Positions 22,710 to 55,717 of a stretch of 64,000 bases of DNA are shown here, in pieces. The translations under genes and the position numbers were made by a program. The stretch lies in the NCBI GenBank assembly GCA_041743505.1, contig JBGTMQ010000021.1:521-64520 (forward strand). Direction: 5' to 3'. Each line of letters opens with the position of its first letter. Positions within the stretch are counted from its first letter, which is position 1. Source of the stretch: Candidatus Saccharimonadia bacterium (lineage in GTDB: Bacteria > Patescibacteriota > Saccharimonadia > UBA4664). The notes beneath the pieces are model-generated. The model did not search any database. It saw nothing but the letters and a program-made list of their open reading frames with translations, and was not told where the DNA came from.

Positions 22710-23201
22710 CTAGATTATGTCAAATGTTTGGACGGGGCCGTGCCAAACTTCAGTATTTAATGCGACTTCCTTGAACTGTCCTTGGGTAATCTTGTTGATC
22801 ACTTTCCGCCAAAAGCGTGTTGCCAGATCGTTTGCTTCCATTTGCGCAACCTCCCATCTGCCGGGAAATTTTGCGAATGTTAATGCTGCCGCCCGCTCCC
22901 CCACTCCGTTTTGTCGAAACGTTGGAGCAACATAAAATTCGGCGATGGAGTGAGCCTGAATTTGAGTAATAGTAAGGGTGTTTACCAGAACGAAGCCACC
23001 TATTTCGTGGTTAACCATTATGAAGAATGCCGCCCGTTCGGAGTCGGTAAAATAATCTGGTAAATATTTATAGGTTTTGATTTCATTCGGGCTATTACCG
23101 CTATAAGGGAGAAGCTCGCGCTGGTACTCGTAGAGAAGTTGAGACAGAATGTCACTGTCCTTTTCGTCTATGGTCTTAAGGCTGACGGTTGCGGTTTGCA
23201 T
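22710..23201 (-). CDS. GNAT-family N-acetyltransferase
   Basis: ...FRQNGVGERAAALTFAKF... acetyl-CoA-binding motif (Q/RxxGxG/A). Confidence 0.6.
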   Translation of the reverse strand: MQTATVSLKTIDEKDSDILSQLLYEYQRELLPYSGNSPNEIKTYKYLPDYFTDSERAAFFIMVNHEIGGFVLVNTLTITQIQAHSIAEFYVAPTFRQNGVGERAAALTFAKFPGRWEVAQMEANDLATRFWRKVINKITQGQFKEVALNTEVWHGPVQTFDII

Positions 23202-23318
23202 AAGAGTCTCCTGCTCTGACCAACTGAGCTACGAGCGCAATCCCTAATCAGTTAGGTTGGCGATTTGATCCGCGAAATCGTCGAGTTTATGTTGGACGAC
23301 GTCCCATATTATCTCAAA

Positions 23319-23609
23319 CTATAGTACTGAAACCAGCTCTGGCGTTATATATGGCTCAAAATGTCGATTTAACTTTGTTGCGACGTCTACTCGTCTGCTC
23401 AGCCGTTCCTCAAGTTCATACTGTAAACCCCCAAGGTCGAGGTATGTCCTGCCTACGCCTAGCTCCACTAATAAGTCCAGGTCGCTGTCCGGCGTAGCCT
23501 CTCCACGCGCATAGCTACCAAAGACATGGGCCTTTGTGACCCCATATTTGTGAAGGATTTCTTTAAGCTCAGTTAAAGGTATTGGTAAGTCTAGATCTTG
23601 TACGGTCAT
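23319..23609 (-). CDS. minimal nucleotidyltransferase (MNT/MntA-like, Pol-beta superfamily)
   Basis: GSYARGEATPDSDLDLLV motif (GSx9-13DxD). Confidence 0.7.
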   Translation of the reverse strand: MTVQDLDLPIPLTELKEILHKYGVTKAHVFGSYARGEATPDSDLDLLVELGVGRTYLDLGGLQYELEERLSRRVDVATKLNRHFEPYITPELVSVL

Positions 23610-23986
23610 ATTCAGATTATAGCAGTATGTGCTGTACGGATCGTCCTTTATATCTAAAGGACTAGAAATTGATCATACGAATTAGACGCGGTACAGGTCC
23701 AGGGGTCGGCGCTGCGATAGATGATTTCTGGAGGGCCATCTGCGACACTATTGCAACTAAACTACGAGAAAAAGAGACTTATATTCTACAGACATTTGAA
23801 CCCTAAACATTTACAGTTTTAGTGTGGATGTCAAAAATGATAGGCCATTCGTTCAACTCAATGAAAAAGAACTGGCAAAATTCAAGAAGCTATGTAAAAA
23901 ATATGGAATTCATTATAAAACCGAGCACGAATATATTAAGTCAGCTCAAGCTCTGTGCCTATTTGTTCATTCTTGCATAGAAGGAT

Positions 23987-25261
23987 CTAAGAAGTCGGTA
24001 AATTGAAGGTCGGCATTTCACTCTGTCCAATCTGGACGTTGCCCTGATATCCAGGATGCTGAATAAGCTCACAATTGCACGTGGGGCTGAAATACGTGGT
24101 TTGACCGGGCGATATAATTCTTGCGGGTGCTTCCCAGCCGATAGAAGCCAGAAAGACACCTGCAACGTGTGACTTTCGTTTCTGACCGTGCTGCTTTTGT
24201 AACACATATGCAGCAGCAGTTTTGAGAATAGCGAAAGACTCTGGGGATAAGGAATAAGCACCGATTGTGACGATGCCAGTTGACGATGGGTCCAATTGAC
24301 CCTTCTTAGATGACGCAGCCTTGTCAAGCTGCAATTCAATCTCCTTTACCGCTTGACTGTATTCAATTGGCTGTTTCTTTGGTGCTCGGAACGCCTGAGG
24401 AGTTTTGAGCTCGATACCGACATATTCAGTCAAGGAAGGCCGCAAACGCAAATCAGGTATACGGCCATCTCCGTGCTCTCCATAGACAATTTCAACCCCA
24501 TTGCCTGAGTCGGTGAGATAACTTGCGACAAGTAAAAGCATAGTTGTGTGACGAACTTCATCAACATCTGTGATCGCTTGAATGAGTTCTGGAAAAGCCG
24601 GGTGATTTTTCCAACGTCGAAACAGTACAACATCCCAAAGCAACTCCGCAAGAACATCACCGTCAATAGTAATCATATTGCTTGATTCGTCGTTTGATTC
24701 CATATTGTTGGCCAATGTATCTGCCTCTTCAATCAACACGATGAGTGGGTGACGCTTGGATGGTGGCGTCTTCGATGCCTTGCCGGCAAGATCAGACTTT
24801 TGCAGCTTTTCGTAACGTACGCCCAGCAACTCACGGATTTCCTGTGCGAATTCCCGTAACGCAGTAGGATCAGTCTTCACTCCCTCGCCTGCAATTCCGA
24901 TCCCCACTTCTGTGGAGTAGTCTGCCAAGGTTTGCTCACTGATAAGCGAAGCGTGTGCGATGTTAATTGTGTCCGAGATGAGAAATCGGCCTGGTGGTAC
25001 AACAGCGGCAGCAGGAATTGCTTGACCAGGTGGTCGCTTCGGTGCAATACCGATGACTTCACATTTTGGACATCGAATACCAAGATCAAAGAGCTGACCG
25101 ACATATAGGTCGATAGCAAGAACGGTATCACATCCTGGGCAAAGCCAATCAATCCCAGCTTTGTTAGTACCGGCGAATAAAGGTGCCAATGTTGGATTAA
25201 AAATACCGACGTCATCTCCTGACCCGTCTAGAAGACTCAAATGCTGCTGTGTACTGCCCAT
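23987..25261 (-). CDS. hypothetical protein with N-terminal C4 zinc ribbon; possible PD-(D/E)xK nuclease motif
   Basis: CPGC...CPKC near the N-terminus. ...GRIPDLRL...YVGIELK... resembles a PD...ExK active site. Inference only. Confidence 0.4.
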   Translation of the reverse strand: MGSTQQHLSLLDGSGDDVGIFNPTLAPLFAGTNKAGIDWLCPGCDTVLAIDLYVGQLFDLGIRCPKCEVIGIAPKRPPGQAIPAAAVVPPGRFLISDTINIAHASLISEQTLADYSTEVGIGIAGEGVKTDPTALREFAQEIRELLGVRYEKLQKSDLAGKASKTPPSKRHPLIVLIEEADTLANNMESNDESSNMITIDGDVLAELLWDVVLFRRWKNHPAFPELIQAITDVDEVRHTTMLLLVASYLTDSGNGVEIVYGEHGDGRIPDLRLRPSLTEYVGIELKTPQAFRAPKKQPIEYSQAVKEIELQLDKAASSKKGQLDPSSTGIVTIGAYSLSPESFAILKTAAAYVLQKQHGQKRKSHVAGVFLASIGWEAPARIISPGQTTYFSPTCNCELIQHPGYQGNVQIGQSEMPTFNLPTS

Positions 25262-25562
25262 AATTCTTCATCCTGTCTAGTAAAAAGGATACGCTGAAGA
25301 TACGTTCAATAAAAATGCTGATGCTTTGGGACCAGAAGGGGCTCGAACTTTTGCAACAGATAACAAAAAAGCCTCTCGCATTTGAGAGGCTAAGGTACGA
25401 ACCAAATTGTATCTGGATAAATACTTTTGGAGGGCCGTAAGGACCACGCTTGGAACCTTTTTCTTGAAAGTCTGGTGATCCTGAGCAAGAAATTAGATTC
25501 GCTCGGATTCGTGTACATCGATGGCCGCGTATCTATCACCAAGCCAGACGCGGAGGTGAGCC

Positions 25563-26045
25563 GTGTTTAGCTTTTTGCATCGACATAAGCCGTCCCCTGC
25601 CGGTCTACTAACTTCGCAGCTATTTAATGACGCCACGTTCTATCCAGCCTTTGTCCACGACTTAAATCGATGCCGTATTGAGGCGATCATTGAGAGCCCG
25701 TTTATAACGACAAAACGCGCTGCTTTTCTTGCTCCTGTATTAATGAGTCTTAAGCGGCGCGGCGTTAGAGTAATTATTAACACCCGTGATCCCAATGAGC
25801 ACGAGACGCACATGCGTATTCAATCCCGAATGGCGGTCGAGGAGTTCCAGCAGGCAGGCGTTCAGGTTCTGTATACGGACAAACACCACAGGAAGCTGGC
25901 TATTCTGGATGGCGAAATTTTATGGGAGGGCAGCCTTAATATTCTCTCCCAAAATGACAGCTGCGAAGTTATGAGGAGGGTTGAGTCTGCAGGGCTAGCT
26001 ATGCAGATGCTACAGTTCGTGAAACTAGATAAATTCTTAAGATGA
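25563..26045 (+). CDS. phospholipase-D-like (HKD) nuclease, Nuc-like
   Basis: Single HKD motif: HRKLAILDGEILWEGSLNILSQND matches HxK(x)4D(x)6GSxN. GTG start. Confidence 0.65.
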   Translation: MFSFLHRHKPSPAGLLTSQLFNDATFYPAFVHDLNRCRIEAIIESPFITTKRAAFLAPVLMSLKRRGVRVIINTRDPNEHETHMRIQSRMAVEEFQQAGVQVLYTDKHHRKLAILDGEILWEGSLNILSQNDSCEVMRRVESAGLAMQMLQFVKLDKFLR

Positions 26046-26061
26046 TATACTGCGAGGCAAT

Positions 26062-26271
26062 ATGGCAAACGATTACGAACTTAACGAGCAAGATATCGAC
26101 AGCACGATCCGATATCTCAAGACCATCGACCCCGGGAACGCTACCCCGGAGATGGCGATAGCCTTTCTGGAAGAGCTGCAAGCTGGCGTCCATTCGCTAG
26201 CCCATACTAAGCCGGAACTCCTTGAGAAGATTTACAAGGACTTAATAGAGAAGAATCGGCTCGAAAAATAA
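26062..26271 (+). CDS. small hypothetical protein (69 aa)
   Basis: ORF immediately after the PLD gene. Confidence 0.3.
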   Translation: MANDYELNEQDIDSTIRYLKTIDPGNATPEMAIAFLEELQAGVHSLAHTKPELLEKIYKDLIEKNRLEK

Positions 26272-26273
26272 GC

Positions 26274-26489
26274 CTAGAAGGGCAAGATTTCGGATGACTT
26301 CACGCCTAATGCCCTTGTAAGCTTTTCAAGGGTTTCGATGGTTGGCTGCTGCTCACTGCGCTCAATCCTGGCGTAGAAATTTGTGCTCAGGCCGGCCTTC
26401 TCTGCAACATCCGCTTGAGTCAGACCCATTTTACGCCTGATAGCTTTTAAGCTGGATGCGATTTCTTGAGTAGTTTTATCTGTGTTCAT
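26274..26489 (-). CDS. XRE-family HTH transcriptional regulator
   Basis: GLTQADVAEKAGLSTNFYARIERSEQQPTIETLEKLTRAL is a classic HTH_3. Confidence 0.7.
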   Translation of the reverse strand: MNTDKTTQEIASSLKAIRRKMGLTQADVAEKAGLSTNFYARIERSEQQPTIETLEKLTRALGVKSSEILPF

Positions 26490-26545
26490 TGGTTATCATT
26501 TTTTTAGAATTATTGACAAATTATAGATATATTTTAACACATATC

Positions 26546-27013
26546 TCATGTCTCTGATTTGATAAGGTTTGTTACAGCTGTGTAGATATCCTTATACGGT
26601 GCATAGAAGGTGTTTGAAGAAAACTTGTGGGCACGCTGCTCACTTTTCTCTTCATCGTAAACATCCACATCTTCATTAAAGTATGTCTCATAGAAGTCTC
26701 GCTTATCCGTGAATATGACTTTGGGTATATCCTCATCAATGCGATCGCTAAACTGGTCGGCGGTCAAATCGATGACATGGCCTCTGTATTCTACCCATGC
26801 GTGTGAGCTATCCAGCCCTGGGTGGTCAGAACTACTCGATGCACATATATATCTCATGCCTGTGTATCCAGAATCCAGCATCAATCTGATTAGAATGTCA
26901 CAGGTTATACTACAGCAACCAGCAGGAAACCGCCCTTGATAAACAGGCATATCCGCAGGCAGGTCTTCGAGTGCTGCTCGTAGTTTAAGGGCCATGTCGT
27001 GAAGTTCTTTCAT
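26546..27013 (-). CDS. transglutaminase-like cysteine peptidase superfamily protein
   Basis: GCCSITCD...HAWVEY...IDLTADQ matches the Cys / HAWVEVY / D-T core of transglutaminase-like domains. Confidence 0.45.
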   Translation of the reverse strand: MKELHDMALKLRAALEDLPADMPVYQGRFPAGCCSITCDILIRLMLDSGYTGMRYICASSSSDHPGLDSSHAWVEYRGHVIDLTADQFSDRIDEDIPKVIFTDKRDFYETYFNEDVDVYDEEKSEQRAHKFSSNTFYAPYKDIYTAVTNLIKSET

Positions 27014-27442: not shown

Positions 27443-27566
27443 GAGCTGATTATAGCATTCACGGCCAAAGTGCTTGTGCTAATTGTGTTAATATGTTCTG
27501 ATTTTGGTTTCAGATATGTTTGTGCTAATCTCTGAATATCAGCCGTTGCGCTGTGAGGAGGTCATT

Positions 27567-35372: not shown

Positions 35373-36731
35373 TTACTGACCCGCCTGTATCGATCCACGA
35401 GCAAATGCCTCAAGGATCCTTTTGCTCGGGAAATCGGAGAGCGATATGAGGCGGTTAGCTAAAGCAACAGGGATCAATGCGTTATCGTACATTGAACATC
35501 GCAGCTCACCAAGAACGGAAAGAACGCTCGTAAGATTGTGGAAGTCTGCATACGATGGGTTCGGTGAGTATTTACTCATCGGAACAGTCGCCACATAAAC
35601 ATTACCGTCTTTAGCTTTGTATATAAACTTTCCTCCCCAGTAAGTGTTGCTACCGTAAGCATCGGGGCCCTTAGGATCACCCGGCACAATGTATTTATAG
35701 ATATATTCGTTAGACAGAAGCAAGACCGAGCCTGGTCGCATTTGACCCTCGATTAGCATAGCGTGTTCAACGAATGGCCCACTCTTTTCTAGGCCCGCCG
35801 CGTTGAGAAGAGGAGGCTCACTCGGCTGGTTCTCTTGGACTCCTAAGAATTCAGCCAACTCCCGCATGGGCTTCGACAATGGCGCCGTCTGACCAAAGAA
35901 GGCCAATGGGCCGTCTTTGATAAATAATACCTCCCGCAGAAGGCTAGGCTTAAGCTCCCACAATGTCTTGATGAGGTGCACTAGCACAATCTGCTCTAGC
36001 ATTGTCATTACATAGCTGGTGATACCACCCGCTCCCTGCTCTTCATCTATTCGTTCATGCAACCGCAGGGCGTCCACAAGATAGATCGGCGCTCCGCAAG
36101 TTGTACAGGCTTGTTCGTCGGGCGAGTCATTTGAGAGCACAATATATGTCCGCGTACAGCCGACATTCGGACAGGACGGTATATCCCAGGTTTTGGCGCC
36201 GTCTGGTTTCCAGCCTCTAAATAAAATCCATCTTAATGCTTCAGATAAGGGCTTCTCTTCATCTTGGGCCTTTGTGAAGAAATCATGCAGGCTTGAGCGT
36301 ACGGAGTCGATGAGTGATTGACTAGCACGGGAAATGTTTTTAGTCGGGAGTACAAGCGTATAGCGCTGGATATTTTTAAGCTTTGCTAAATCCTCAGGGG
36401 CAATGAACGGCTGATTATCGAGTTCACGTAATTCCTCAAGCTTAAAAAGCAAGGGACCGAAAGCAAAAAAGGTTATTACGGATGATGGAAATTCGTTCCG
36501 GACAGCGGCCTCCCTATAGCTTCCATCAACAGCAACAACTGCTTTGATTTTCTGATCCTCGACCTCTGGTACATCCTGTATAAGAGCTTCTAGGACGGAT
36601 TTTTCTGCTGCTTTTGGCACCGTGCAGCCGTCCAGAAATGCTTGAACGGTTGGGTTATTAATAATATTGCTATGGGATATTTTGCTCGCCCTCTCCATGG
36701 GCTTGCGCCCTTTGGCGCTACCATATGCCAT
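35373..36731 (-). CDS. NurA-like nuclease with inserted C4 zinc ribbon
   Basis: NurA motif KAVVAVDGSYRE. CPNVGC...CTTCG ribbon. ATG overlaps the HerA stop (TAATG). Confidence 0.55.
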   Translation of the reverse strand: MAYGSAKGRKPMERASKISHSNIINNPTVQAFLDGCTVPKAAEKSVLEALIQDVPEVEDQKIKAVVAVDGSYREAAVRNEFPSSVITFFAFGPLLFKLEELRELDNQPFIAPEDLAKLKNIQRYTLVLPTKNISRASQSLIDSVRSSLHDFFTKAQDEEKPLSEALRWILFRGWKPDGAKTWDIPSCPNVGCTRTYIVLSNDSPDEQACTTCGAPIYLVDALRLHERIDEEQGAGGITSYVMTMLEQIVLVHLIKTLWELKPSLLREVLFIKDGPLAFFGQTAPLSKPMRELAEFLGVQENQPSEPPLLNAAGLEKSGPFVEHAMLIEGQMRPGSVLLLSNEYIYKYIVPGDPKGPDAYGSNTYWGGKFIYKAKDGNVYVATVPMSKYSPNPSYADFHNLTSVLSVLGELRCSMYDNALIPVALANRLISLSDFPSKRILEAFARGSIQAGQ

Positions 36732-38698
36732 TAAACGGCCTCGGCTTGTGCTTCACTTTTTGGAGCTTCGGCCACAATAACCTTAAATTGATCCACTTGT
36801 ATCGGGACGATGAAGGTATTCGAGTCAGTTTTAAGCCGGATAAAGCCTCGATCGGTTGTTCGGCGGAGGCTGTCGGTGAAGTCTTCAAAGTCGTAATACT
36901 TATTGAGCTCACGAAGTTCATCTTGGTTGTTGAGATGAGAAACGAACCAGTTCTGAGTGTTTTTGAGAATACTTCCGGAAATAGAGCTGACTTCCTGGGT
37001 CGCATAGCACAGGCCAAGTCGTAGCTTCTGGCCTTCTTTCGCTAGGCGGTTATAGATATTGGTGAGATCTTTTTCTTCTTTACGCGGGAAAAGGTTGTGC
37101 GCTTCTTCAAAATACATTTGTATGAAGTTTGCGGGTTCGTTATCGATGAACCTCTTCATGGCTTCGCCGAAGATCTTTTTACATACACGGTCGGAGTATA
37201 CCCGTTGTATGTGCGGATCACCCTGTGAAAGATCTATAAGAACGATTTTGCCGGATCGCAAAAGTTCCACTATCTCGTCCTCAAAGGATTCTCCAATGGT
37301 GGCCGTGTGGAGGTCACGCCCTTTAATAAATTTTCTATACCCGCTTTCGCTTGAGTTTGCACCCGGCCTGGATTTTCGAGTAAGAAACCGCATCAAGGTT
37401 TGAAGATCTTCTTCGGCCCATTCGCGTCCGCCCTTCGACTTCTTCAGTGCCTGGAATGGACCGCCCGAGTCAGCGTAATTGTCCCATGCGGCGCTAAACC
37501 AAGCGGCTGCATCGTCTAGGCTTAAGCCCGACTTGGGCTCGACTCCTTTCAGGCCGGGAATCTCTGACTCTCTGATCTCTTTGGCGGAATCGAAATACAC
37601 TTTTTCATCGGTCTGAGCAAAGCCCGCCTTGAATAGACACGCCTTGTATGCCGCAATTTTCCGTTTATATTTAATCGTCGCCCCAACGTCTTCGTTGTCC
37701 GGCTCTTCCCAGTCTATGTTCAAGAAAGCCTTAACGTAATCGGCGGTGTCGTCAGCAAGTAGAGTGGAGAGCAAACCGAACCCATCTGTTACCGACTTAT
37801 AAAAGTTCAGTTTCATTACCTTGAAGCCTGTTTTTTCCATAACACTGTAGCGGGTTACTTCGTTTGGGTACTGCTGGAAAATCGCCGTGCCGTCGTCCTG
37901 CTGGTTGGTATTTGCGTACTCGCCATTTATGTCGAAAACAATTTGGCCTACGGGCTTCACGGGGGCGCCATTCATCGGAGCGCCCGAATTTGATATGCCC
38001 ACAGTCGCCTGGATAATCTTTTTTACGGAGTTGGATTTTCCAGTTCGGGTCATTCCAAATAGTGCAGTTCTTTTACCGAGGAAATCGATTGGAGTGACAA
38101 ATACTGGCACATCTTCGCCGGAAAGGTGTCGCTGGCTTGAACTATAGCGAATTTTGCCAATCCGCTCGTCGCCTTTACCGCCTGGTATTCCCTGCTCTCT
38201 GAAGTTGACGATGTATTCGAGCAACTTACCCGTTGGCTTGATCACCTCATAGCTATTAGGGGCGTAAAAGTTATCCAAATCTCCAGCGAATTTTACATCA
38301 CCAGCGTCATTGCGGTAAAAAGAGCCGATAACCCGACATTCCAACCCCGAATACTGAAACTCTGCGCGGGTGTAGGAATCGAGCTGAGAGCCGGCGGATT
38401 GTTCCTTGTAATGGTCAACCATTGCGGCAACAACGTCATCGTCCGTAGGGAGACGCGTAGGACGAAGGACACGAACTAAGATCGCTTCATCTATCCCGTC
38501 TTCAGCGGTGTACCGGCAGAGTAGAAAAGCTCCCGCAGGGACACCGCTAACTTTTCGTTTCCAGCTATCGTTTGACAGGAGTTTCAGTGTGTTGAAGTCG
38601 AGATAGAATGGGCGCCCGACAAATGCATCTTGTTTTTTGGCCTCAGCGAATAAGTCCACCGTGGCTAGTTGTTTGAGTTCTTCGATTACAGAAGCCAC
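36731..38698 (-). CDS. HerA/FtsK-like ATPase (DUF87-type)
   Basis: Walker A LFGMTRTGKSN, Walker B KIVLIDLSQGD, C-terminal QEVSSISGSILKNTQNWFVSHL typical of HerA. 655 aa. Confidence 0.65.
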   Translation of the reverse strand: MASVIEELKQLATVDLFAEAKKQDAFVGRPFYLDFNTLKLLSNDSWKRKVSGVPAGAFLLCRYTAEDGIDEAILVRVLRPTRLPTDDDVVAAMVDHYKEQSAGSQLDSYTRAEFQYSGLECRVIGSFYRNDAGDVKFAGDLDNFYAPNSYEVIKPTGKLLEYIVNFREQGIPGGKGDERIGKIRYSSSQRHLSGEDVPVFVTPIDFLGKRTALFGMTRTGKSNSVKKIIQATVGISNSGAPMNGAPVKPVGQIVFDINGEYANTNQQDDGTAIFQQYPNEVTRYSVMEKTGFKVMKLNFYKSVTDGFGLLSTLLADDTADYVKAFLNIDWEEPDNEDVGATIKYKRKIAAYKACLFKAGFAQTDEKVYFDSAKEIRESEIPGLKGVEPKSGLSLDDAAAWFSAAWDNYADSGGPFQALKKSKGGREWAEEDLQTLMRFLTRKSRPGANSSESGYRKFIKGRDLHTATIGESFEDEIVELLRSGKIVLIDLSQGDPHIQRVYSDRVCKKIFGEAMKRFIDNEPANFIQMYFEEAHNLFPRKEEKDLTNIYNRLAKEGQKLRLGLCYATQEVSSISGSILKNTQNWFVSHLNNQDELRELNKYYDFEDFTDSLRRTTDRGFIRLKTDSNTFIVPIQVDQFKVIVAEAPKSEAQAEAV

Positions 38699-38713
38699 AC
38701 TGCGGCCCTTTGT

Positions 38714-39934
38714 TTAGTTTCTGAGGCTGGGCTTGTCCCAATCGAGGGTAATCGCTTCCGGAATGCTCACTTTGTGTGGGCTCATTAACAGAAGCCGATC
38801 AGTCTTTGTGGCTCGTCCAATATTATTCTTCCAAATGCGGCTAACTTTGACGCCAAGCGGCAACTCATCGGCAATAATACTATGAAGATACCACCCTTGA
38901 GGCTCGGCCGCTAGTTCCCAAACGGCTTTGGCAAGGTTAATATGTTCATCGTTGCGTCGAACATCTCCAATAACCAAGCAGACATAGCCATCATCAGCCA
39001 CAACTTCGCGCATTTGTAGCAAGAATGCGCTCATGAATTCGATGTAACGAGCCATGGAGCTACTTGCCATAAGGGTATCATCAACGGCCTTTGCCTCTTG
39101 GCCCAGAAGCCACAGCCGTACCCAGTTATATTTTCCATATTTTATAACCTCTAGGTACGGGGGGGAGGTTAATACCAATTTAACTTTCTCTTTGCGCAGC
39201 CAGGCGGGCGCAATGGCCGTGGCGTCTTGCTGCCAGCTCTTACCTCCGTGAATGGGCCGCTCAGGTAAATCAAATCTCTGGATTTTCAATCGCAGCATTT
39301 CAAAAACATTGACTTCAGGTTGAGTTAATCCGTGCTCCGATATATAGCGCCTAACATACGCTGGCGACATCGCGAACGTATTCGGCATACTTATGGAAAA
39401 GCCTCGCGCCTCACCGCTTTTAGTGTGGTTAGCATGCATCGTACCAAGTGCAGAGGCGAGTATGAAATTATCTACAAAGCTATTTACATTGAGCTCCGAT
39501 TTCATGAAGACGAGTTGGCGTAGGGTGTCGGCGCTATAAAGCATTGCGATATCCGGTGGCGTGTTAGAAATATCGACAGTAGCGTCTTTAAGTATGCTGA
39601 TTAAATTATCTAGCCGTTGGTTTAGTTGTTTTTGTGATGGAATATCAAGCTTTGCTTTCGTCAGTACTGTCGCCATCGGGTTTAGGTCACTCGCATAAGC
39701 TTTTCGGTCTAACATTATTGCTTCTAGCGCCGATGTCCCACGTCCCGAAAACGGGTCGTAAATTGTTTCGCCCTGGGATGTTAGCCAAGCAATAAGGTAA
39801 TGCGCTAACTGCGGTGGGAACATGGCGAAATAACTGCACATACTGTGTAATGGGTGGCCCCAGCGCCTTGGTACCACCCGCCAATTCATCGGAATGGCGT
39901 CTAGCGATACTTTTGACTCCAAAATTGTGCTCAT
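38714..39934 (-). CDS. DNA methyltransferase (N6-adenine/N4-cytosine type, SPPY motif)
   Basis: AdoMet motif I DPFSGRGTS and catalytic motif IV TSPPY (LVLTSPPYLEV) with an intervening target-recognition region. Confidence 0.7.
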   Translation of the reverse strand: MSTILESKVSLDAIPMNWRVVPRRWGHPLHSMCSYFAMFPPQLAHYLIAWLTSQGETIYDPFSGRGTSALEAIMLDRKAYASDLNPMATVLTKAKLDIPSQKQLNQRLDNLISILKDATVDISNTPPDIAMLYSADTLRQLVFMKSELNVNSFVDNFILASALGTMHANHTKSGEARGFSISMPNTFAMSPAYVRRYISEHGLTQPEVNVFEMLRLKIQRFDLPERPIHGGKSWQQDATAIAPAWLRKEKVKLVLTSPPYLEVIKYGKYNWVRLWLLGQEAKAVDDTLMASSSMARYIEFMSAFLLQMREVVADDGYVCLVIGDVRRNDEHINLAKAVWELAAEPQGWYLHSIIADELPLGVKVSRIWKNNIGRATKTDRLLLMSPHKVSIPEAITLDWDKPSLRN

Positions 39935-51540: not shown

Positions 51541-51585
51541 GAGGCTCGGAGTCTTTACGACTGCCGGGCCTCCTTTTTTGCGTCG
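51541..51585 (+). terminator. intrinsic terminator between convergent genes
   Basis: ggaggctcgg...ccgggcctcc followed by tttttt. Confidence 0.5.
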
Positions 51586-52340
51586 AGGATTTGGCTAATT
51601 TGCTTCTGCATAATCACTTCAATCACGAGTTCGTCTTCATACGAGTCCTCGATTTCAGTTTCCGTGAACTTGGACAGCTTGTATTGCATGTTCTGCGTGC
51701 TGCAAATAAACAGAATTACCGGCAGCTCTGAGCCGGTGGCGTCCTCCCAGTCCCCTTCTTCGGCATACTTGATGTATTGCTTGATGCGCTTCATCGCCAC
51801 AAAGAATGGCTGTGCGTCGTCCATCATATCTAGTATGAAATGCCTTTCATTGCCGGCAGCGTCCAAACGCAGATATGCATCAGGCATCGGTTTGGGGAAA
51901 TACTCAAAATTTGAAAGCTCGCTCTTGGTGAAATACCGCAGGCGATCCCCGTATTGTGCCTTAAGCTGGCAATAGAGGCGGAATACGACTAGCCGATGGC
52001 GGATGAAGCGATCTGAAGCAGTTTTGTCCTTATAGGCGCTGTGAAGCACGGTGGGGTCGTATTTTTTCTCCGGCAGGCTCTTAAGCGCTCGTATGCCCTT
52101 TGGCAGCAAGTGAAAAGACGCGTGCTGTCCTAGCAAATGATAGTCCGGCCGATATTTGCGGCCAATGTACTCTTGGACCAGCAGTGTCTTTAGGCGGCGG
52201 TTCATTTCACTTTTATCTTTTTTGCCTAGGCTCTTAGCGAGTAGGTCCGTGGTTGCGAAGCGAAAGCGATAGATTAAATGAAGTATGGAGATTTGTTTGT
52301 CATTGAGTGACTTATGGGATGTGGGCTGATGTGTACTCAT
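51555..52340 (-). CDS. replication-relaxation-family-like wHTH protein
   Basis: N-terminal wHTH (QISILHLIYRFRFATTDLLAKSLG). The architecture resembles Replic_Relax proteins of actinobacterial plasmids. Tentative. Confidence 0.35.
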   Translation of the reverse strand: MSTHQPTSHKSLNDKQISILHLIYRFRFATTDLLAKSLGKKDKSEMNRRLKTLLVQEYIGRKYRPDYHLLGQHASFHLLPKGIRALKSLPEKKYDPTVLHSAYKDKTASDRFIRHRLVVFRLYCQLKAQYGDRLRYFTKSELSNFEYFPKPMPDAYLRLDAAGNERHFILDMMDDAQPFFVAMKRIKQYIKYAEEGDWEDATGSELPVILFICSTQNMQYKLSKFTETEIEDSYEDELVIEVIMQKQISQILDAKKEARQS

Positions 52341-53658: not shown

Positions 53659-53968
53659 CTAGAAGCTATTGATTGAGGCGTTATCGCCCCGATATATGCT
53701 TTATTTTAGCACAATTGCCTTGCCTGAAATCGAAGGTAAATCCCTTGCCTCTATACCTATAGATATAGTAAACTATATTCATAGGTATAATAATGCTACG
53801 CGGGGGGCGATATGGGGCGCACAAAGGGCTCAAAGAATAAGAGCGAACTGGTGAGGCCTACGACCTCCGCTCTGACCTCGGAGGGCAGAATTCAATTTCT
53901 AGCAAACCTCATGATTGATCGGGTACTTGGCGACCCAGGCGATCCAAGTAAGAAGGCGGAGGCCTACG

Positions 53969-55711
53969 ATGAATGATTTCCCGCCAAAGGAAAATGGTGT
54001 TGCAGCAATCCGCGTGTCTTCCGTCAAGCAAGGTACTGAGGGCGACTCGCCGGAGGCTCAAAAAGAGCAAATGGCGCAGTTTTTTATGTCTCAAAATCTC
54101 AATCTGAAGAAAGTGTTTATCTTTTTGGAGTCGGCTTCGAAGGACGAGCAGCCGATGCAGGAGGCCATCGACTACTGCAAGGACCCCAAGAACGATATTC
54201 AAGTTTTTGTCATAAAATCGATCGACCGTTTCACTAGGGGTGGCTCCTACTCTTATGATTTCCTTAAGATGCAGCTTGAACGATACAACGTAAAGCTCGT
54301 CGATATATACGGCATAATTAGTTCGCAAAAGATCAACACTTTGGCCCATTTAGGTGTCGAGTATAAGTGGAGTGTGTTTTCCCCCTCTAAGAAGTCCGAA
54401 ATACTTGAGGCTGAGCGTGCTAAAGACGAGATGCGCGATATTATGAGCCGCATGATCGGTGCAGAGATCCGCTACGCCCGTATGGGGTACTGGATACGCA
54501 GAGCGCCCTACGGCTTTGACACGGATAAGCTAGAGACATCGAATGGTAAACGCTGCATTCTGAGGCCAAATGCCTCAGAGGCGCCGTTTGTTATTAAAAT
54601 GTTTGAGCTGAGAGCCCGGGGCACCTTAACGGATGAGCAAATAGTCGAGGAAATCAACCGGCTCGGATATAAATCCAGACTCAAGAAAAAGCGAGATAAG
54701 CACGACAAGACTACGATTGTCGGGCAAACGGGCGGAAATGAGCTTAACCTGAAGCACTTCCTTAAGTTTGTTCAGTACCCCATATACGCCGGCATAAATA
54801 CGGAGAAATGGACACAAGGAAAGGCGACAAAATGTAAGTTTGAGGGTCTCGTCTCGATTGATCTCTTCAACGCCGCAAATAAAGGCAAGCTGACAATCGT
54901 GGAGGAGAACGGTGAAGTGGCGCTCTATAGAATAAGGCCGCCAGAGTACCGCATAACCAAGGGTGTAAAAAATCCCGAGTTCCCTTATAAGAAATATGTC
55001 ATGTGCCCGACCTGCGAAAAGCCCCTTTATGGGAGCGCATCCAAGGGTAGATTAGGCAAGTACTATCCTGCCTATCATTGTAATAGCCGCGGTCACTACT
55101 TTAGGGTGCCATCCAGAGACTTCGAAGAAACGATTACTAAGTTCGTGAAAAATCTTCAAGTCTCGCCGGAATATATTGATGCACTCGTGGAGGCCGTCGT
55201 AACGGAATGGGAGAAGCGTGAAAAGGAACTTCATAAGGACGACGTAAATATTGATGCCCGCATTGCTGAGCTGAAGGCTCAGGCGCGAATGACGGCCGAT
55301 AAAATTCGCTTTCTGAATTCAGAAGTAGCGATTAAGTATATTGAAGAAGACTTGCTAAAAATAGAGGGGCAAATTGCTATGCTGATTGCAGAAAAAGCTA
55401 ACGCGACGGTTCAAGAACCCATAAATATAAGGGTCATTATGGAGAAGGTAAAATATTTTCTGGAACACCTAGATGAACTGCTACTCTACCAGATCAATCC
55501 ACTCGCAAAAGCAGCTTATTTTGGGGTTATTTGGGACAAGGCTCCAACGTACCAGGAAATACTTTCTGGAACCCAAGATTTATCCCTCTGCGAAGGGCTA
55601 AATGAAGTGTTTAAACTTAAGAATATGGAAAATGATTCAATGGTGGGCCATCAGGGACTCGAACCCTGGACACGGAGATTAAGAGTCTCCTGCTCTAACC
55701 AACTGAGCTAA
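53969..55711 (+). CDS. large serine recombinase (integrase)
   Basis: Resolvase N-terminal catalytic domain AAIRVSSVKQ...DSPEAQ, recombinase domain, Cys-rich zinc ribbon (CPTCEK...CNSRGH), coiled-coil. GGAGG upstream of ATG 53969. 3' end overlaps the antisense tRNA-Lys. Confidence 0.75.
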   Translation: MNDFPPKENGVAAIRVSSVKQGTEGDSPEAQKEQMAQFFMSQNLNLKKVFIFLESASKDEQPMQEAIDYCKDPKNDIQVFVIKSIDRFTRGGSYSYDFLKMQLERYNVKLVDIYGIISSQKINTLAHLGVEYKWSVFSPSKKSEILEAERAKDEMRDIMSRMIGAEIRYARMGYWIRRAPYGFDTDKLETSNGKRCILRPNASEAPFVIKMFELRARGTLTDEQIVEEINRLGYKSRLKKKRDKHDKTTIVGQTGGNELNLKHFLKFVQYPIYAGINTEKWTQGKATKCKFEGLVSIDLFNAANKGKLTIVEENGEVALYRIRPPEYRITKGVKNPEFPYKKYVMCPTCEKPLYGSASKGRLGKYYPAYHCNSRGHYFRVPSRDFEETITKFVKNLQVSPEYIDALVEAVVTEWEKREKELHKDDVNIDARIAELKAQARMTADKIRFLNSEVAIKYIEEDLLKIEGQIAMLIAEKANATVQEPINIRVIMEKVKYFLEHLDELLLYQINPLAKAAYFGVIWDKAPTYQEILSGTQDLSLCEGLNEVFKLKNMENDSMVGHQGLEPWTRRLRVSCSNQLS

Positions 55712-55717
55712 TGGCCC
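55641..55717 (-). tRNA. tRNA-Lys (anticodon CTT), CCA encoded
   Basis: Hand-folded cloverleaf. Acceptor GGGCCAT/ATGGCCC, D-arm GCTC..GAGC, anticodon stem GGAGA/TCTCC with loop CTCTTAA, T-arm CAGGG-TTCGAGT-CCCTG, discriminator A plus CCA. Confidence 0.85.

What the first reader, a model, noticed from the sequence alone, without database searches (positions are those of the whole stretch)
23319..26489. Second defence-like patch: orphan MNT nucleotidyltransferase, Zn-ribbon protein with possible PD-(D/E)xK motif, PLD/Nuc-like nuclease, XRE regulator
MNT-type nucleotidyltransferases (GSYARGE...DSDLDLLV) normally pair with a HEPN toxin; none is visible, so this one is an orphan or has a non-canonical partner. 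The adjacent 424-aa protein has an N-terminal C4 ribbon and a PD...ExK-like segment (RIPDLRL...YVGIELK). The convergent 160-aa protein has a complete HxK(x)4D(x)6GSxN PLD motif as in Nuc/BfiI/DrmC-type nucleases. Together with the XRE gene they look like a nuclease-based defence or addiction locus upstream of the T4SS.
Basis: partly seen in the sequence, partly recalled or inferred. Interest (0 to 1): 0.55.

Follow-up and report, generated by a model that had tools for sequence, protein, structure and literature searches.

The report
Three unrelated nuclease-type gene units
The four genes are real, but they are three unrelated pieces lying next to a secretion-system locus of a Saccharimonadales (Patescibacteria) bacterium, not one defence system: a decayed toxin-antitoxin pair, a lone nuclease of an unnamed family, and a nuclease/small-protein/regulator trio common in that lineage.

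Summary
They do not behave as one system.

1. The MNT gene is orphan because its HepT toxin gene was deleted. The last 24 HepT codons plus the stop still sit directly after the MNT stop codon. The closest MNT relative (79% identity) has an intact 111-aa HepT in that position.

2. The 424-aa protein is a C4 zinc ribbon, a helical domain and a C-terminal PD-(D/E)xK domain. H238, D270 and K286 are invariant in 135 relatives, and the domain model has pLDDT 94. The family has about 850 clusters and no Pfam, NCBIfam or PADLOC model. It has no conserved neighbour, and the relatives whose contigs I could read are high-GC.

3. The 160-aa single-HKD PLD has more than 3000 relatives, typically 53-66% identical, all of 157-179 aa. 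Those that carry an organism name are Saccharimonadales. It groups weakly with nuclease-type PLDs (Zucchini, PLD3, NucT, MkoC). It recurs with a small acidic ORF in 5 of 8 contexts, with a convergent XRE gene in 4 of 8, and with T4SS genes in 4 of 8. It also occurs alone among housekeeping genes.

A 38-nt tRNA half marks a recombination scar beside the MNT remnant. Interest is modest.

The parts
23319..23609 (-). mntA-type minimal nucleotidyltransferase (96 aa), intact. It is an orphan antitoxin of a decayed type VII (MntA/HepT) toxin-antitoxin pair.
   Evidence: PF01909 E 4e-16; NCBIfam MntA_antitoxin E 3.7e-10 but below its cutoff (39.6 bits against 60); PADLOC PDC-S09 E 4e-24. PDB 1wot minimal nucleotidyltransferase E 2e-11. 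79% identical to P0284, which is followed by HepT.
23244..23318 (-). hepT remnant: the last 24 codons plus stop (FEIIWDVVQHKLDDFADQIANLTD*), starting directly after the mntA stop codon. The N-terminal ~87 codons, including the RxxxxH catalytic motif, are gone.
   Evidence: Matches the C-terminus of the 111-aa HepT-like protein (PF01934) of L023 (FGIIWDVVENKLGDFTNQIIKLAD*): 15/24 identical, tblastn E 1e-7 against a small database, and a 76-nt ungapped DNA alignment. The same remnant is present in L001.
23201..23238 (-). 5' half of a tRNA-Lys(CTT)-like gene, broken in the anticodon loop. The GNAT gene's ATG overlaps the break.
   Evidence: Read from the sequence. 30/31 nt identical to the intact tRNA-Lys at 55680-55710(-), blastn E 1e-10. 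No 3' half was found in the window. ARAGORN and Rfam do not call it.
23987..25261 (-). Solitary 424-aa gene: zinc ribbon, helical domain and PD-(D/E)xK nuclease domain. It belongs to an unnamed family.
   Evidence: No Pfam, NCBIfam, PADLOC or PHROG hit. 853 representative clusters at E<=1e-3 and 233 at E<=1e-30. Full-length AF2 model pLDDT 78. No conserved neighbours in L003, L006 or L009.
25061..25141 (-). C4 zinc ribbon (CPGC...CPKC, residues 41-67) of the 424-aa protein.
   Evidence: C41, C44, C64 and C67 are over 90% conserved in 104 relatives. Weak zinc-ribbon matches in the PDB and in Pfam.
24059..24565 (-). PD-(D/E)xK core (residues ~233-401): alpha1 carries H238, beta2 begins at D270, beta3 carries E284-x-K286, and Q322 precedes beta4.
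   Evidence: H238, D270 and K286 are invariant, and E284 and Q322 are at least 90% conserved, in 135 sequences. Domain model pLDDT 94.2, pTM 0.91, with alpha-beta-beta-beta-alpha-beta order. Weak Foldseek hits are dominated by Hjc, SfsA, EcoRV, HincII, EcoO109I, Mrr-domain, MmcB-like, RecU and VRR-NUC proteins.
25563..26045 (+). 160-aa single-HKD PLD-family protein, basic (pI 9.3), with no signal peptide. It is a probable nuclease; the HKD motif lies at nt 25887-25940.
   Evidence: PLDc_2 E 2e-10. PADLOC MkoC E 5e-9, DpdK and DrmC about 4e-4. The profile search of the PDB gives Zucchini/MitoPLD 4ggj at E 4.6e-4, then PLD3 exonuclease and NucT only at non-significant E (0.58-0.71). 3163 relatives; the 120 best are 157-179 aa.
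26062..26271 (+). 69-aa acidic protein (pI 4.7), 16 nt downstream of the PLD gene on the same strand. It is a recurrent partner of the PLD.
   Evidence: Orthologues (29-78% identical, pI 4.5-5.2) follow the PLD gene in L016, L013, L017 and L020 and are absent in L011, L015 and L027. No family hit.
26274..26489 (-). 71-aa XRE/HTH_3 regulator, convergent with the PLD operon (2-nt gap between the stop codons). A promoter-like site of its own lies at 26520-26549.
   Evidence: HTH_3 E 1e-16. 36-89% identical XRE genes abut the 3' end of the PLD unit in L016, L013 and L011. Promoter-like site.

Best explanation
The 3.2-kb stretch is a mosaic of three independent units. It lies in a variable slot beside the chromosomal type IV secretion locus of a Saccharimonadales (Patescibacteria) genome.

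(i) A dead type VII toxin-antitoxin module. mntA is intact. hepT has lost about 87 codons, including its RxxxxH RNase motif, so only its last 24 codons remain. A broken tRNA half next to it marks a recombination scar. The MNT now has no toxin to neutralise. It may persist by chance or as an anti-addiction antitoxin (inference).

(ii) A solitary, probably horizontally acquired gene for a zinc-ribbon plus PD-(D/E)xK protein. It most likely acts as a Mg2+-dependent DNA endonuclease. The ribbon and helical domains would give DNA or target recognition, and H238/D270/E284/K286 would do the chemistry. The fold and motif are shown here; substrate and role are inferred.

(iii) A lineage-typical unit of a basic single-HKD PLD nuclease that should act as a homodimer. 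It is often co-transcribed with a small acidic protein that may modulate or inhibit it, and it faces a convergent XRE repressor. Because the PLD also occurs alone among housekeeping genes, it is more likely a cellular nucleic-acid-processing or salvage nuclease than a classical defence toxin.
For: (i) HepT remnant, 15/24 aa and 76 nt, directly after the MNT stop codon. An intact MNT-HepT pair in L023. An independent HepT pseudogene, with an in-frame stop and a frameshift at the R-x4-H motif, beside an intact MNT in L025 and L026. The tRNA half.

(ii) Invariant H238, D270 and K286 in 135 sequences. Domain model pLDDT 94 with the canonical strand order. PD-(D/E)xK proteins dominate the weak structural hits in two libraries. 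No MNT or small-PLD neighbour in L003, L006 or L009. Relatives' contigs are 62-68% GC against 40-50% for the PLD and MNT relatives.

(iii) 3163 relatives, the 120 best 53-83% identical and 157-179 aa. The named relatives of the PLD and of the MNT are Saccharimonadales. The gene order PLD, 69 aa, XRE, two small genes, T4SS pilin is identical in the sister contig L016. The small ORF is present in 5 of 8 contexts, an adjacent XRE in 4 of 8, and T4SS genes within the locus in 4 of 8. Basic enzyme, acidic partner. Nuclease-type PLDs are the nearest solved and annotated relatives.
Against: - No biochemical data exist for any of the proteins.
- The structural matches for the 424-aa domain are all below significance (best E 1.3e-3, TM no higher than 0.54), and no sequence profile links it to a named nuclease family.
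- Only a handful of neighbourhoods could be read for the 424-aa family, most on short contigs, so a loosely linked partner cannot be excluded.
- The PLD's similarity to nuclease-type PLDs is weak (E 1e-4 to 1e-9, partial coverage).
- The small ORF is absent in 3 of 8 contexts, which argues against an obligatory inhibitor.
- Physical adjacency of three nuclease-related units could still reflect a defence-island-like hotspot. Variable cargo (an AAA_13 ATPase, a reverse transcriptase) sits in the same slot in L017 and L013.
Confidence: 0.6

Rival explanations
1. One reading: the MNT, the 424-aa nuclease, the PLD nuclease and the XRE gene cooperate as one nuclease-based defence or addiction system upstream of the T4SS.
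For: Physical clustering within 3.2 kb. All components have domains seen in defence systems: PADLOC PDC-S09, MkoC, DpdK, DrmC, control-protein/capH-like HTH. The same slot carries defence-like cargo in relatives: AAA_13 in L017, a reverse transcriptase in L013.
Against: None of the relatives' neighbourhoods repeats the combination. The genes lie on alternating strands, separated by gaps of 300-380 bp and by an opposite-strand ORF. The MNT's true partner is identified as a deleted HepT. No complete PADLOC system components are present.
Confidence: 0.07
2. The PLD plus the 69-aa acidic protein is a toxin/immunity (type II TA-like) pair or an abortive-infection module under XRE control. The nuclease is held inactive by the acidic partner and released on infection or on loss of the locus.
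For: Tight two-gene operon (16-nt gap). Basic enzyme and acidic small partner in five orthologous pairs. A convergent XRE gene with matches to controller-protein and antitoxin models. Occurrence next to mobile or defence-like cargo in L013, L015, L017 and L020.
Against: An intact PLD occurs without the small ORF in 3 of 8 contexts, including among housekeeping genes. The very uniform length across more than 3000 relatives, with the best 120 at 53-83% identity, fits a vertically kept cellular enzyme better than a patchy defence gene. The family is absent from phage, plasmid and IMG/VR collections.
Confidence: 0.15
3. The PLD unit is functionally tied to the T4SS. It could be a secreted nuclease effector with an immunity or chaperone protein, or a DNA-processing accessory, used by the episymbiont to exploit host nucleic acids.
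For: The PLD lies 1.5-5 kb from the T4SS pilin gene in the window, L016 and L017/L019, and near a coupling protein in L013. Patescibacterial T4SS clusters mostly lack relaxases and are thought to have non-conjugative roles (PMC12102498; PMC10633639). These bacteria lack nucleotide synthesis (PMC10633639).
Against: 4 of 8 contexts have no T4SS gene within 5-6 kb. The essential T4SS region of S. epibionticum ML1 has no such PLD (supplement of PMC10633639). There is no secretion signal, and variable genes are inserted between the PLD and the T4SS.
Confidence: 0.1
4. The 424-aa protein is a DNA repair or recombination enzyme (resolvase- or MmcB/CoiA-like) rather than a restriction or defence nuclease.
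For: Structural near-hits include Hjc, RecU and MmcB-like proteins. Relatives sit among ordinary metabolic genes, not in defence islands. No methyltransferase partner is present.
Against: The distribution is sporadic: no tblastn-confirmed relative turned up in the peptide-pattern scans of GTDB representative genomes, and the nearest relative is only 46% identical. Mrr-type and type II restriction folds score equally well.
Confidence: 0.3

Closest known systems
Type VII toxin-antitoxin MntA/HepT (MNT/HEPN, DUF86)
   Same: A 96-aa minimal nucleotidyltransferase with the GS...DxD motif. The closest relative has hepT starting 2 nt after mntA. The window keeps the hepT 3' end in the same place.
   Different: The toxin gene is deleted apart from 24 codons, so the module cannot function as a toxin-antitoxin pair. 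The NCBIfam MntA score is below its cutoff.
PD-(D/E)xK (restriction-endonuclease-like) nucleases: Hjc/RecU resolvases, Mrr-type and type II restriction enzymes. CoiA is the closest for the zinc-finger-plus-nuclease layout (from my own knowledge).
   Same: An alpha-beta-beta-beta-alpha-beta core with D at the start of beta2 and ExK in beta3. An N-terminal C4 zinc ribbon, as in some members.
   Different: No sequence-profile link to any named family. The conserved alpha1 residue is His rather than Glu. A long helical insert separates the ribbon from the core. There is no methyltransferase or other partner gene.
Single-HKD PLD nucleases: Nuc (pKM101), NucT, Zucchini/MitoPLD, and the PLD modules of Mokosh (MkoC), DISARM (DrmC) and Dpd (DpdK)
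   Same: One complete HxK(x)4D(x)6GSxN motif in a protein of about 160 aa, so it should act as a homodimer. Best profile matches are to Zucchini and MkoC.
   Different: No signal peptide, unlike Nuc (from my own knowledge). No helicase, DISARM or dpd partner genes. Its own conserved N-terminal motif (LLxSxLFxxxTFYxxF...ESPFIT). A partner set of a small acidic ORF and a convergent XRE gene that, as far as I could find, is not described.
Controller (C) proteins and XRE antitoxins
   Same: A 71-aa HTH_3 protein with matches to PADLOC control-protein/capH models and NCBIfam HipB-type models.
   Different: No adjacent restriction-modification genes. It is convergent with its presumed target operon rather than upstream of it.

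Membership tests
Type VII TA (MntA/HepT) | MNT antitoxin with a GS-x(9-13)-DxD nucleotidyltransferase motif | tested here: met
   FGSYARGEATPDSDLDLLV; PF01909 E 4e-16; PDB 1wot E 2e-11
Type VII TA (MntA/HepT) | Adjacent intact HepT/HEPN toxin with an Rx4-6H motif | tested here: not met
   Only the last 24 codons remain at 23244-23318. The RNLISH-equivalent region is deleted.
PD-(D/E)xK nuclease superfamily | Conserved D...(D/E)xK catalytic motif on beta2/beta3 | tested here: met
   D270 and K286 invariant, E284 at least 90% conserved, in 135 sequences. Their positions on the strands come from the model.
PD-(D/E)xK nuclease superfamily | Restriction-endonuclease-like alpha-beta-beta-beta-alpha-beta fold, similar to solved members | tested here: inconclusive
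PD-(D/E)xK nuclease superfamily | Metal-dependent nuclease activity | not testable with these tools
   Needs biochemistry
PLD superfamily, nuclease-type single-HKD branch (Nuc/Zucchini-like) | One complete HxK(x)4D(x)6GSxN motif in a single-domain protein of about 150-200 aa | tested here: met
   H109, K111, D116, G123, S124 and N126 are all invariant. PLDc_2 scores 40.9 bits, above the cutoff of 27.
PLD superfamily, nuclease-type single-HKD branch (Nuc/Zucchini-like) | Closer to nuclease PLDs than to two-domain lipid synthases | tested here: inconclusive
   The best PDB profile hit is Zucchini/MitoPLD (E 4.6e-4); PLD3 exonuclease and NucT appear only at non-significant E (0.58-0.71) alongside PLD1, and no cardiolipin synthase appears. 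PADLOC MkoC E 5e-9. The scores are weak.
Mokosh / DISARM / Dpd defence systems | Presence of the partner genes (MkoA helicase; DrmA/B plus methylase; the dpd cluster) | tested here: not met
   No such genes were found within the ORFs scanned between about 13 and 56 kb of the window.
Restriction-modification with a C protein | An adjacent DNA methyltransferase and endonuclease controlled by the HTH protein | tested here: not met
   The nearest DNA methylase is at 38714-39934, 12 kb away and beyond the T4SS.

The most novel reading that the evidence does not exclude
The conserved PLD, small acidic protein and XRE trio of Saccharimonadales is a T4SS-linked nuclease module. It could be an effector with an immunity or chaperone protein, or an intake-side processing nuclease. 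The nucleotide-auxotrophic episymbiont would use it to degrade or process host-derived nucleic acids.
Probability: 0.1. Interest if true: 0.75.

Novelty: new member of a known kind. Interest (0 to 1): 0.3.

Why it matters
The result clears up an apparent anomaly: the 'orphan MNT with a non-canonical partner' is ordinary toxin loss. Toxin decay with antitoxin retention happened independently in a second Saccharimonadales genome.

Two follow-ups have some value. The first is an unnamed, fairly large zinc-ribbon plus PD-(D/E)xK family (about 850 clusters at 50% identity) that current domain and defence databases miss. The second is a very widespread small HKD nuclease of soil-type Saccharimonadales with a recurrent acidic partner and XRE neighbour, often beside the T4SS that is essential for the epibiotic lifestyle in this group. 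If that nuclease turned out to serve host nucleic-acid exploitation, it would bear on how these reduced bacteria feed.

Tried and rejected
- The full-length 424-aa model against the PDB gave only noise: acetyl-CoA carboxylase central domain and Argonaute.
- Sequence profiles of the 424-aa family (9 and 135 sequences) against PDB sequences gave only zinc-ribbon noise.
- Pfam scans of 104 family members, even at E<=5, gave only zinc-ribbon and SEC-C hits.
- Scans of GTDB representative genomes for the 424-aa family found nothing, so no organism names were obtained.
- IMG/VR scans found neither the 424-aa family nor the PLD. tblastn against plasmids and phages was empty for both.
- Exact-sequence cluster look-up gave no names.
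- Rfam found nothing in the 424-aa/PLD intergenic region or around the tRNA half.
- Literature searches found no description of the PLD near patescibacterial T4SS loci. The S. epibionticum tables show no orthologue beside its T4SS.
- I considered and rejected the idea that 23.2-55.7 kb is one integrated conjugative element bounded by the tRNA-derived repeat. Housekeeping genes (transaldolase, UDP-galactopyranose mutase, Na+/H+ antiporter) lie inside it, and the fragment's acceptor stem differs from that of the intact tRNA-Lys.
Full report
**Observation**

The ORF list shows all four genes at the stated coordinates.
- MNT, 23319-23609(-), 96 aa.
- A 424-aa ORF, 23987-25261(-).
- A 160-aa PLD ORF, 25563-26045(+).
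- A 71-aa XRE ORF, 26274-26489(-).

Pfam confirms NTP_transf_2 (E 4e-16), PLDc_2 (E 2e-10, above the gathering score) and HTH_3 (E 1e-16). The 424-aa protein matches nothing in Pfam, NCBIfam, PADLOC or PHROGs. The T4SS operon does start just downstream, at 27504: TrbC-type pilin, a VirB6-like protein, PrgI, VirB4, CHAP and a coupling protein.

Named relatives of the PLD and of the MNT are 'Candidatus Saccharimonadales bacterium'. The T4SS gene set is the patescibacterial type described in PMC12102498.

**The MNT gene**

The closest relative (P0284, 79% identical) is followed, 2 nt after its stop codon, by a 111-aa HepT-like gene (PF01934). In the window, the codons directly after the MNT stop read FEIIWDVVQHKLDDFADQIANLTD*. 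The C-terminus of that HepT is FGIIWDVVENKLGDFTNQIIKLAD*. The match is 15 of 24 residues, tblastn E 1e-7 against a small database, and the DNA aligns without gaps over 76 nt.

So hepT has lost its first ~87 codons, including the RNLISH (Rx4H) catalytic motif. The MNT is the surviving antitoxin of a dead type VII toxin-antitoxin pair, not a protein with an unusual partner.

A second Saccharimonadales contig (L025/L026, MNT 66% identical) carries an independently decayed hepT. It has an in-frame stop and a frameshift exactly at the Rx4H motif, beside an intact MNT.

Five nucleotides after the hepT remnant lies a 38-nt 5' half of a tRNA-Lys(CTT)-like gene, at 23201-23238(-), broken in the anticodon loop. 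The start codon of the next gene, a GNAT acetyltransferase, overlaps the break. This is a recombination scar.

**The 424-aa protein**

A word-indexed search found only 8 relatives, the nearest 46% identical. An exhaustive profile search found 853 representative clusters at E<=1e-3 and 233 at E<=1e-30. It is therefore a real, sizeable family with no model in Pfam, NCBIfam, PADLOC or PHROGs.

- In 135 aligned members, H238, D270 and K286 are invariant. E206, W217, P221, L243, E284, P288 and Q322 are at least 90% conserved.
- The four ribbon cysteines are over 90% conserved.
- The full-length AF2 model has pLDDT 78.
- The C-terminal domain (residues 195-412), modelled with 104 sequences, has pLDDT 94.2 and pTM 0.91. 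Its order is alpha-beta-beta-beta-alpha-beta, with D270 at the start of beta2 and E284-x-K286 in beta3. That is the PD-(D/E)xK layout.

Foldseek finds no significant match. The weak hits in the PDB are Hjc, SfsA, EcoRV, HincII, EcoO109I, a Cas4-family protein and Exo5. In BFVD they are an Mrr-type restriction domain, an MmcB-like protein, RecU, VRR-NUC and Hjc, with a best E of 1.3e-3 and TM of 0.46/0.54. Nearly all the named weak hits in BFVD, and many in the PDB, are restriction-endonuclease-like nucleases.

Neighbourhoods of relatives (L003/L007, L006, L008-L010) contain no MNT, no small PLD and no XRE gene. They share no gene with each other. These contigs are 62-68% GC, whereas the Saccharimonadales contigs are 40-50%. 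Most family members have a high-GC type of amino-acid composition. The gene thus looks like a solitary, horizontally acquired accessory gene. Seven of 104 members add a C-terminal SEC-C motif.

**The PLD**

It has 3163 relatives. The 120 best are 157-179 aa and 53-83% identical. The HKD motif residues and an N-terminal motif (TFY...ESPFIT) are invariant.

A profile search of PDB sequences gives Zucchini/MitoPLD first (E 4.6e-4). PLD3 exonuclease and NucT follow only at non-significant E-values (0.58-0.71). PADLOC gives the C-terminal PLD module of MkoC (E 5e-9), then DpdK and DrmC. It therefore sits, weakly, with nuclease-type PLDs. The automatic 'cardiolipin synthase-like' names are generic.

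I read eight distinct neighbourhoods.
- A 68-74-aa acidic ORF (pI 4.5-5.2; the PLD itself has pI 9.3) follows the PLD gene within about 20 nt in 5 of 8.
- An orthologous XRE gene (36-89% identical) abuts the unit convergently in 4 of 8.
- T4SS genes lie within the locus in 4 of 8.
- The sister contig L016 (PLD 83% identical) has exactly the window's order: PLD, 69 aa, XRE, two small genes, pilin, then the rest of the T4SS.
- In L017 an AAA_13 ATPase and RadC, and in L013 a reverse transcriptase, are inserted between the PLD unit and the T4SS genes. The slot is therefore a hotspot for variable cargo.
- In L027-L029 the PLD stands alone among ribosomal and replication genes.

The family is absent from the phage, plasmid and IMG/VR collections. 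S. epibionticum ML1 has no such gene beside its essential T4SS, only a non-essential 333-aa two-domain PLD elsewhere (supplement of PMC10633639).

Together this favours a lineage-typical cellular nuclease, with an optional acidic modulator and an XRE regulator, over an obligatory toxin-antitoxin or defence system. The toxin/immunity reading and the T4SS-linked reading remain open at low probability.

**Overall**

The unifying interpretation does not. The stretch holds three unrelated units: a decayed MntA/HepT pair next to a tRNA scar, a solitary nuclease of an unnamed PD-(D/E)xK family, and the PLD/small-ORF/XRE unit that is syntenic with the T4SS in close relatives. None meets the membership criteria of a known multi-gene defence system (see the membership table). 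The novelty is limited to new members of known enzyme superfamilies.

Noticed in passing
window 23201-23238(-) and 55680-55710(-): A 38-nt tRNA 5' half (GCGCTCGTAGCTCAGTTGGTCAGAGCAGGAGACTCTTA) shares 30/31 nt with the intact tRNA-Lys(CTT) at 55641-55717. Its acceptor stem is instead identical to that of the neighbouring tRNA-Arg(TCG). No matching 3' half is in the window. It is probably the scar of an integration or rearrangement.
   Followed up: partly
window 53915-55711(+), 51555-52340(-): A 598-aa ORF with a serine-recombinase (Resolvase) N-terminal domain runs into and overlaps the tRNA-Lys gene on the opposite strand. A Replic_Relax (relaxase-like) gene lies 1.6 kb away. This may be a small integrated element at the tRNA.
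   Followed up: no
L025/L026 4292-4640: A second Saccharimonadales MNT (66% identical) sits next to a HepT pseudogene with an in-frame stop and a frameshift at the Rx4H motif. Toxin decay with antitoxin retention has therefore happened independently.
   Followed up: yes
window 23824-24006(+): A 60-aa ORF between the 424-aa gene and the MNT, on the opposite strand and overlapping the 3' end of the 424-aa gene. It has weak DUF3801 (E 2.5e-4) and MobC_2 similarity, so it may be a remnant of a mobilisation gene.
   Followed up: no
window 25370-25391(-): A strong terminator-like hairpin (AGCCTCTC-AAATGC-GAGAGGCT followed by a T-run) lies about 110 nt upstream of the 424-aa start codon on the same strand, with no annotated gene ending there. 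Rfam finds nothing.
   Followed up: partly
window 35373-39934(-): NurA-like (452 aa), HerA/DUF87 (655 aa) and N6/N4 DNA methylase (406 aa) genes lie in a row immediately after the T4SS coupling-protein gene. This is another nuclease/ATPase/methylase patch.
   Followed up: no
L017 5724-7973(-), L013 7029-8024(-), L015 7881-12486(-): The slot next to the PLD unit carries different defence-like cargo in relatives: an AAA_13 ATPase (749 aa) plus RadC, a reverse-transcriptase-like gene with an extra HTH, and DUF499 plus DUF1156 genes.
   Followed up: no
window 26546-27013(-); L001 8405-8716: The 155-aa protein upstream of the XRE gene matches phrog_26734 (E 1.4e-9). It has a Cys...His...Asp pattern (AGCCS, SHAWVEY, IDLTAD) suggestive of a papain/transglutaminase-like enzyme. 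In the near-identical contig L001 it is called as only 103 aa.
   Followed up: no
L009 9376-9912(+): A Barstar-domain (RNase inhibitor) gene lies 134 nt downstream of the homologue of the 424-aa family in a 264-kb high-GC contig. A 594-aa two-domain PLD lies 3.7 kb upstream of that homologue. I saw this in one lineage only.
   Followed up: no
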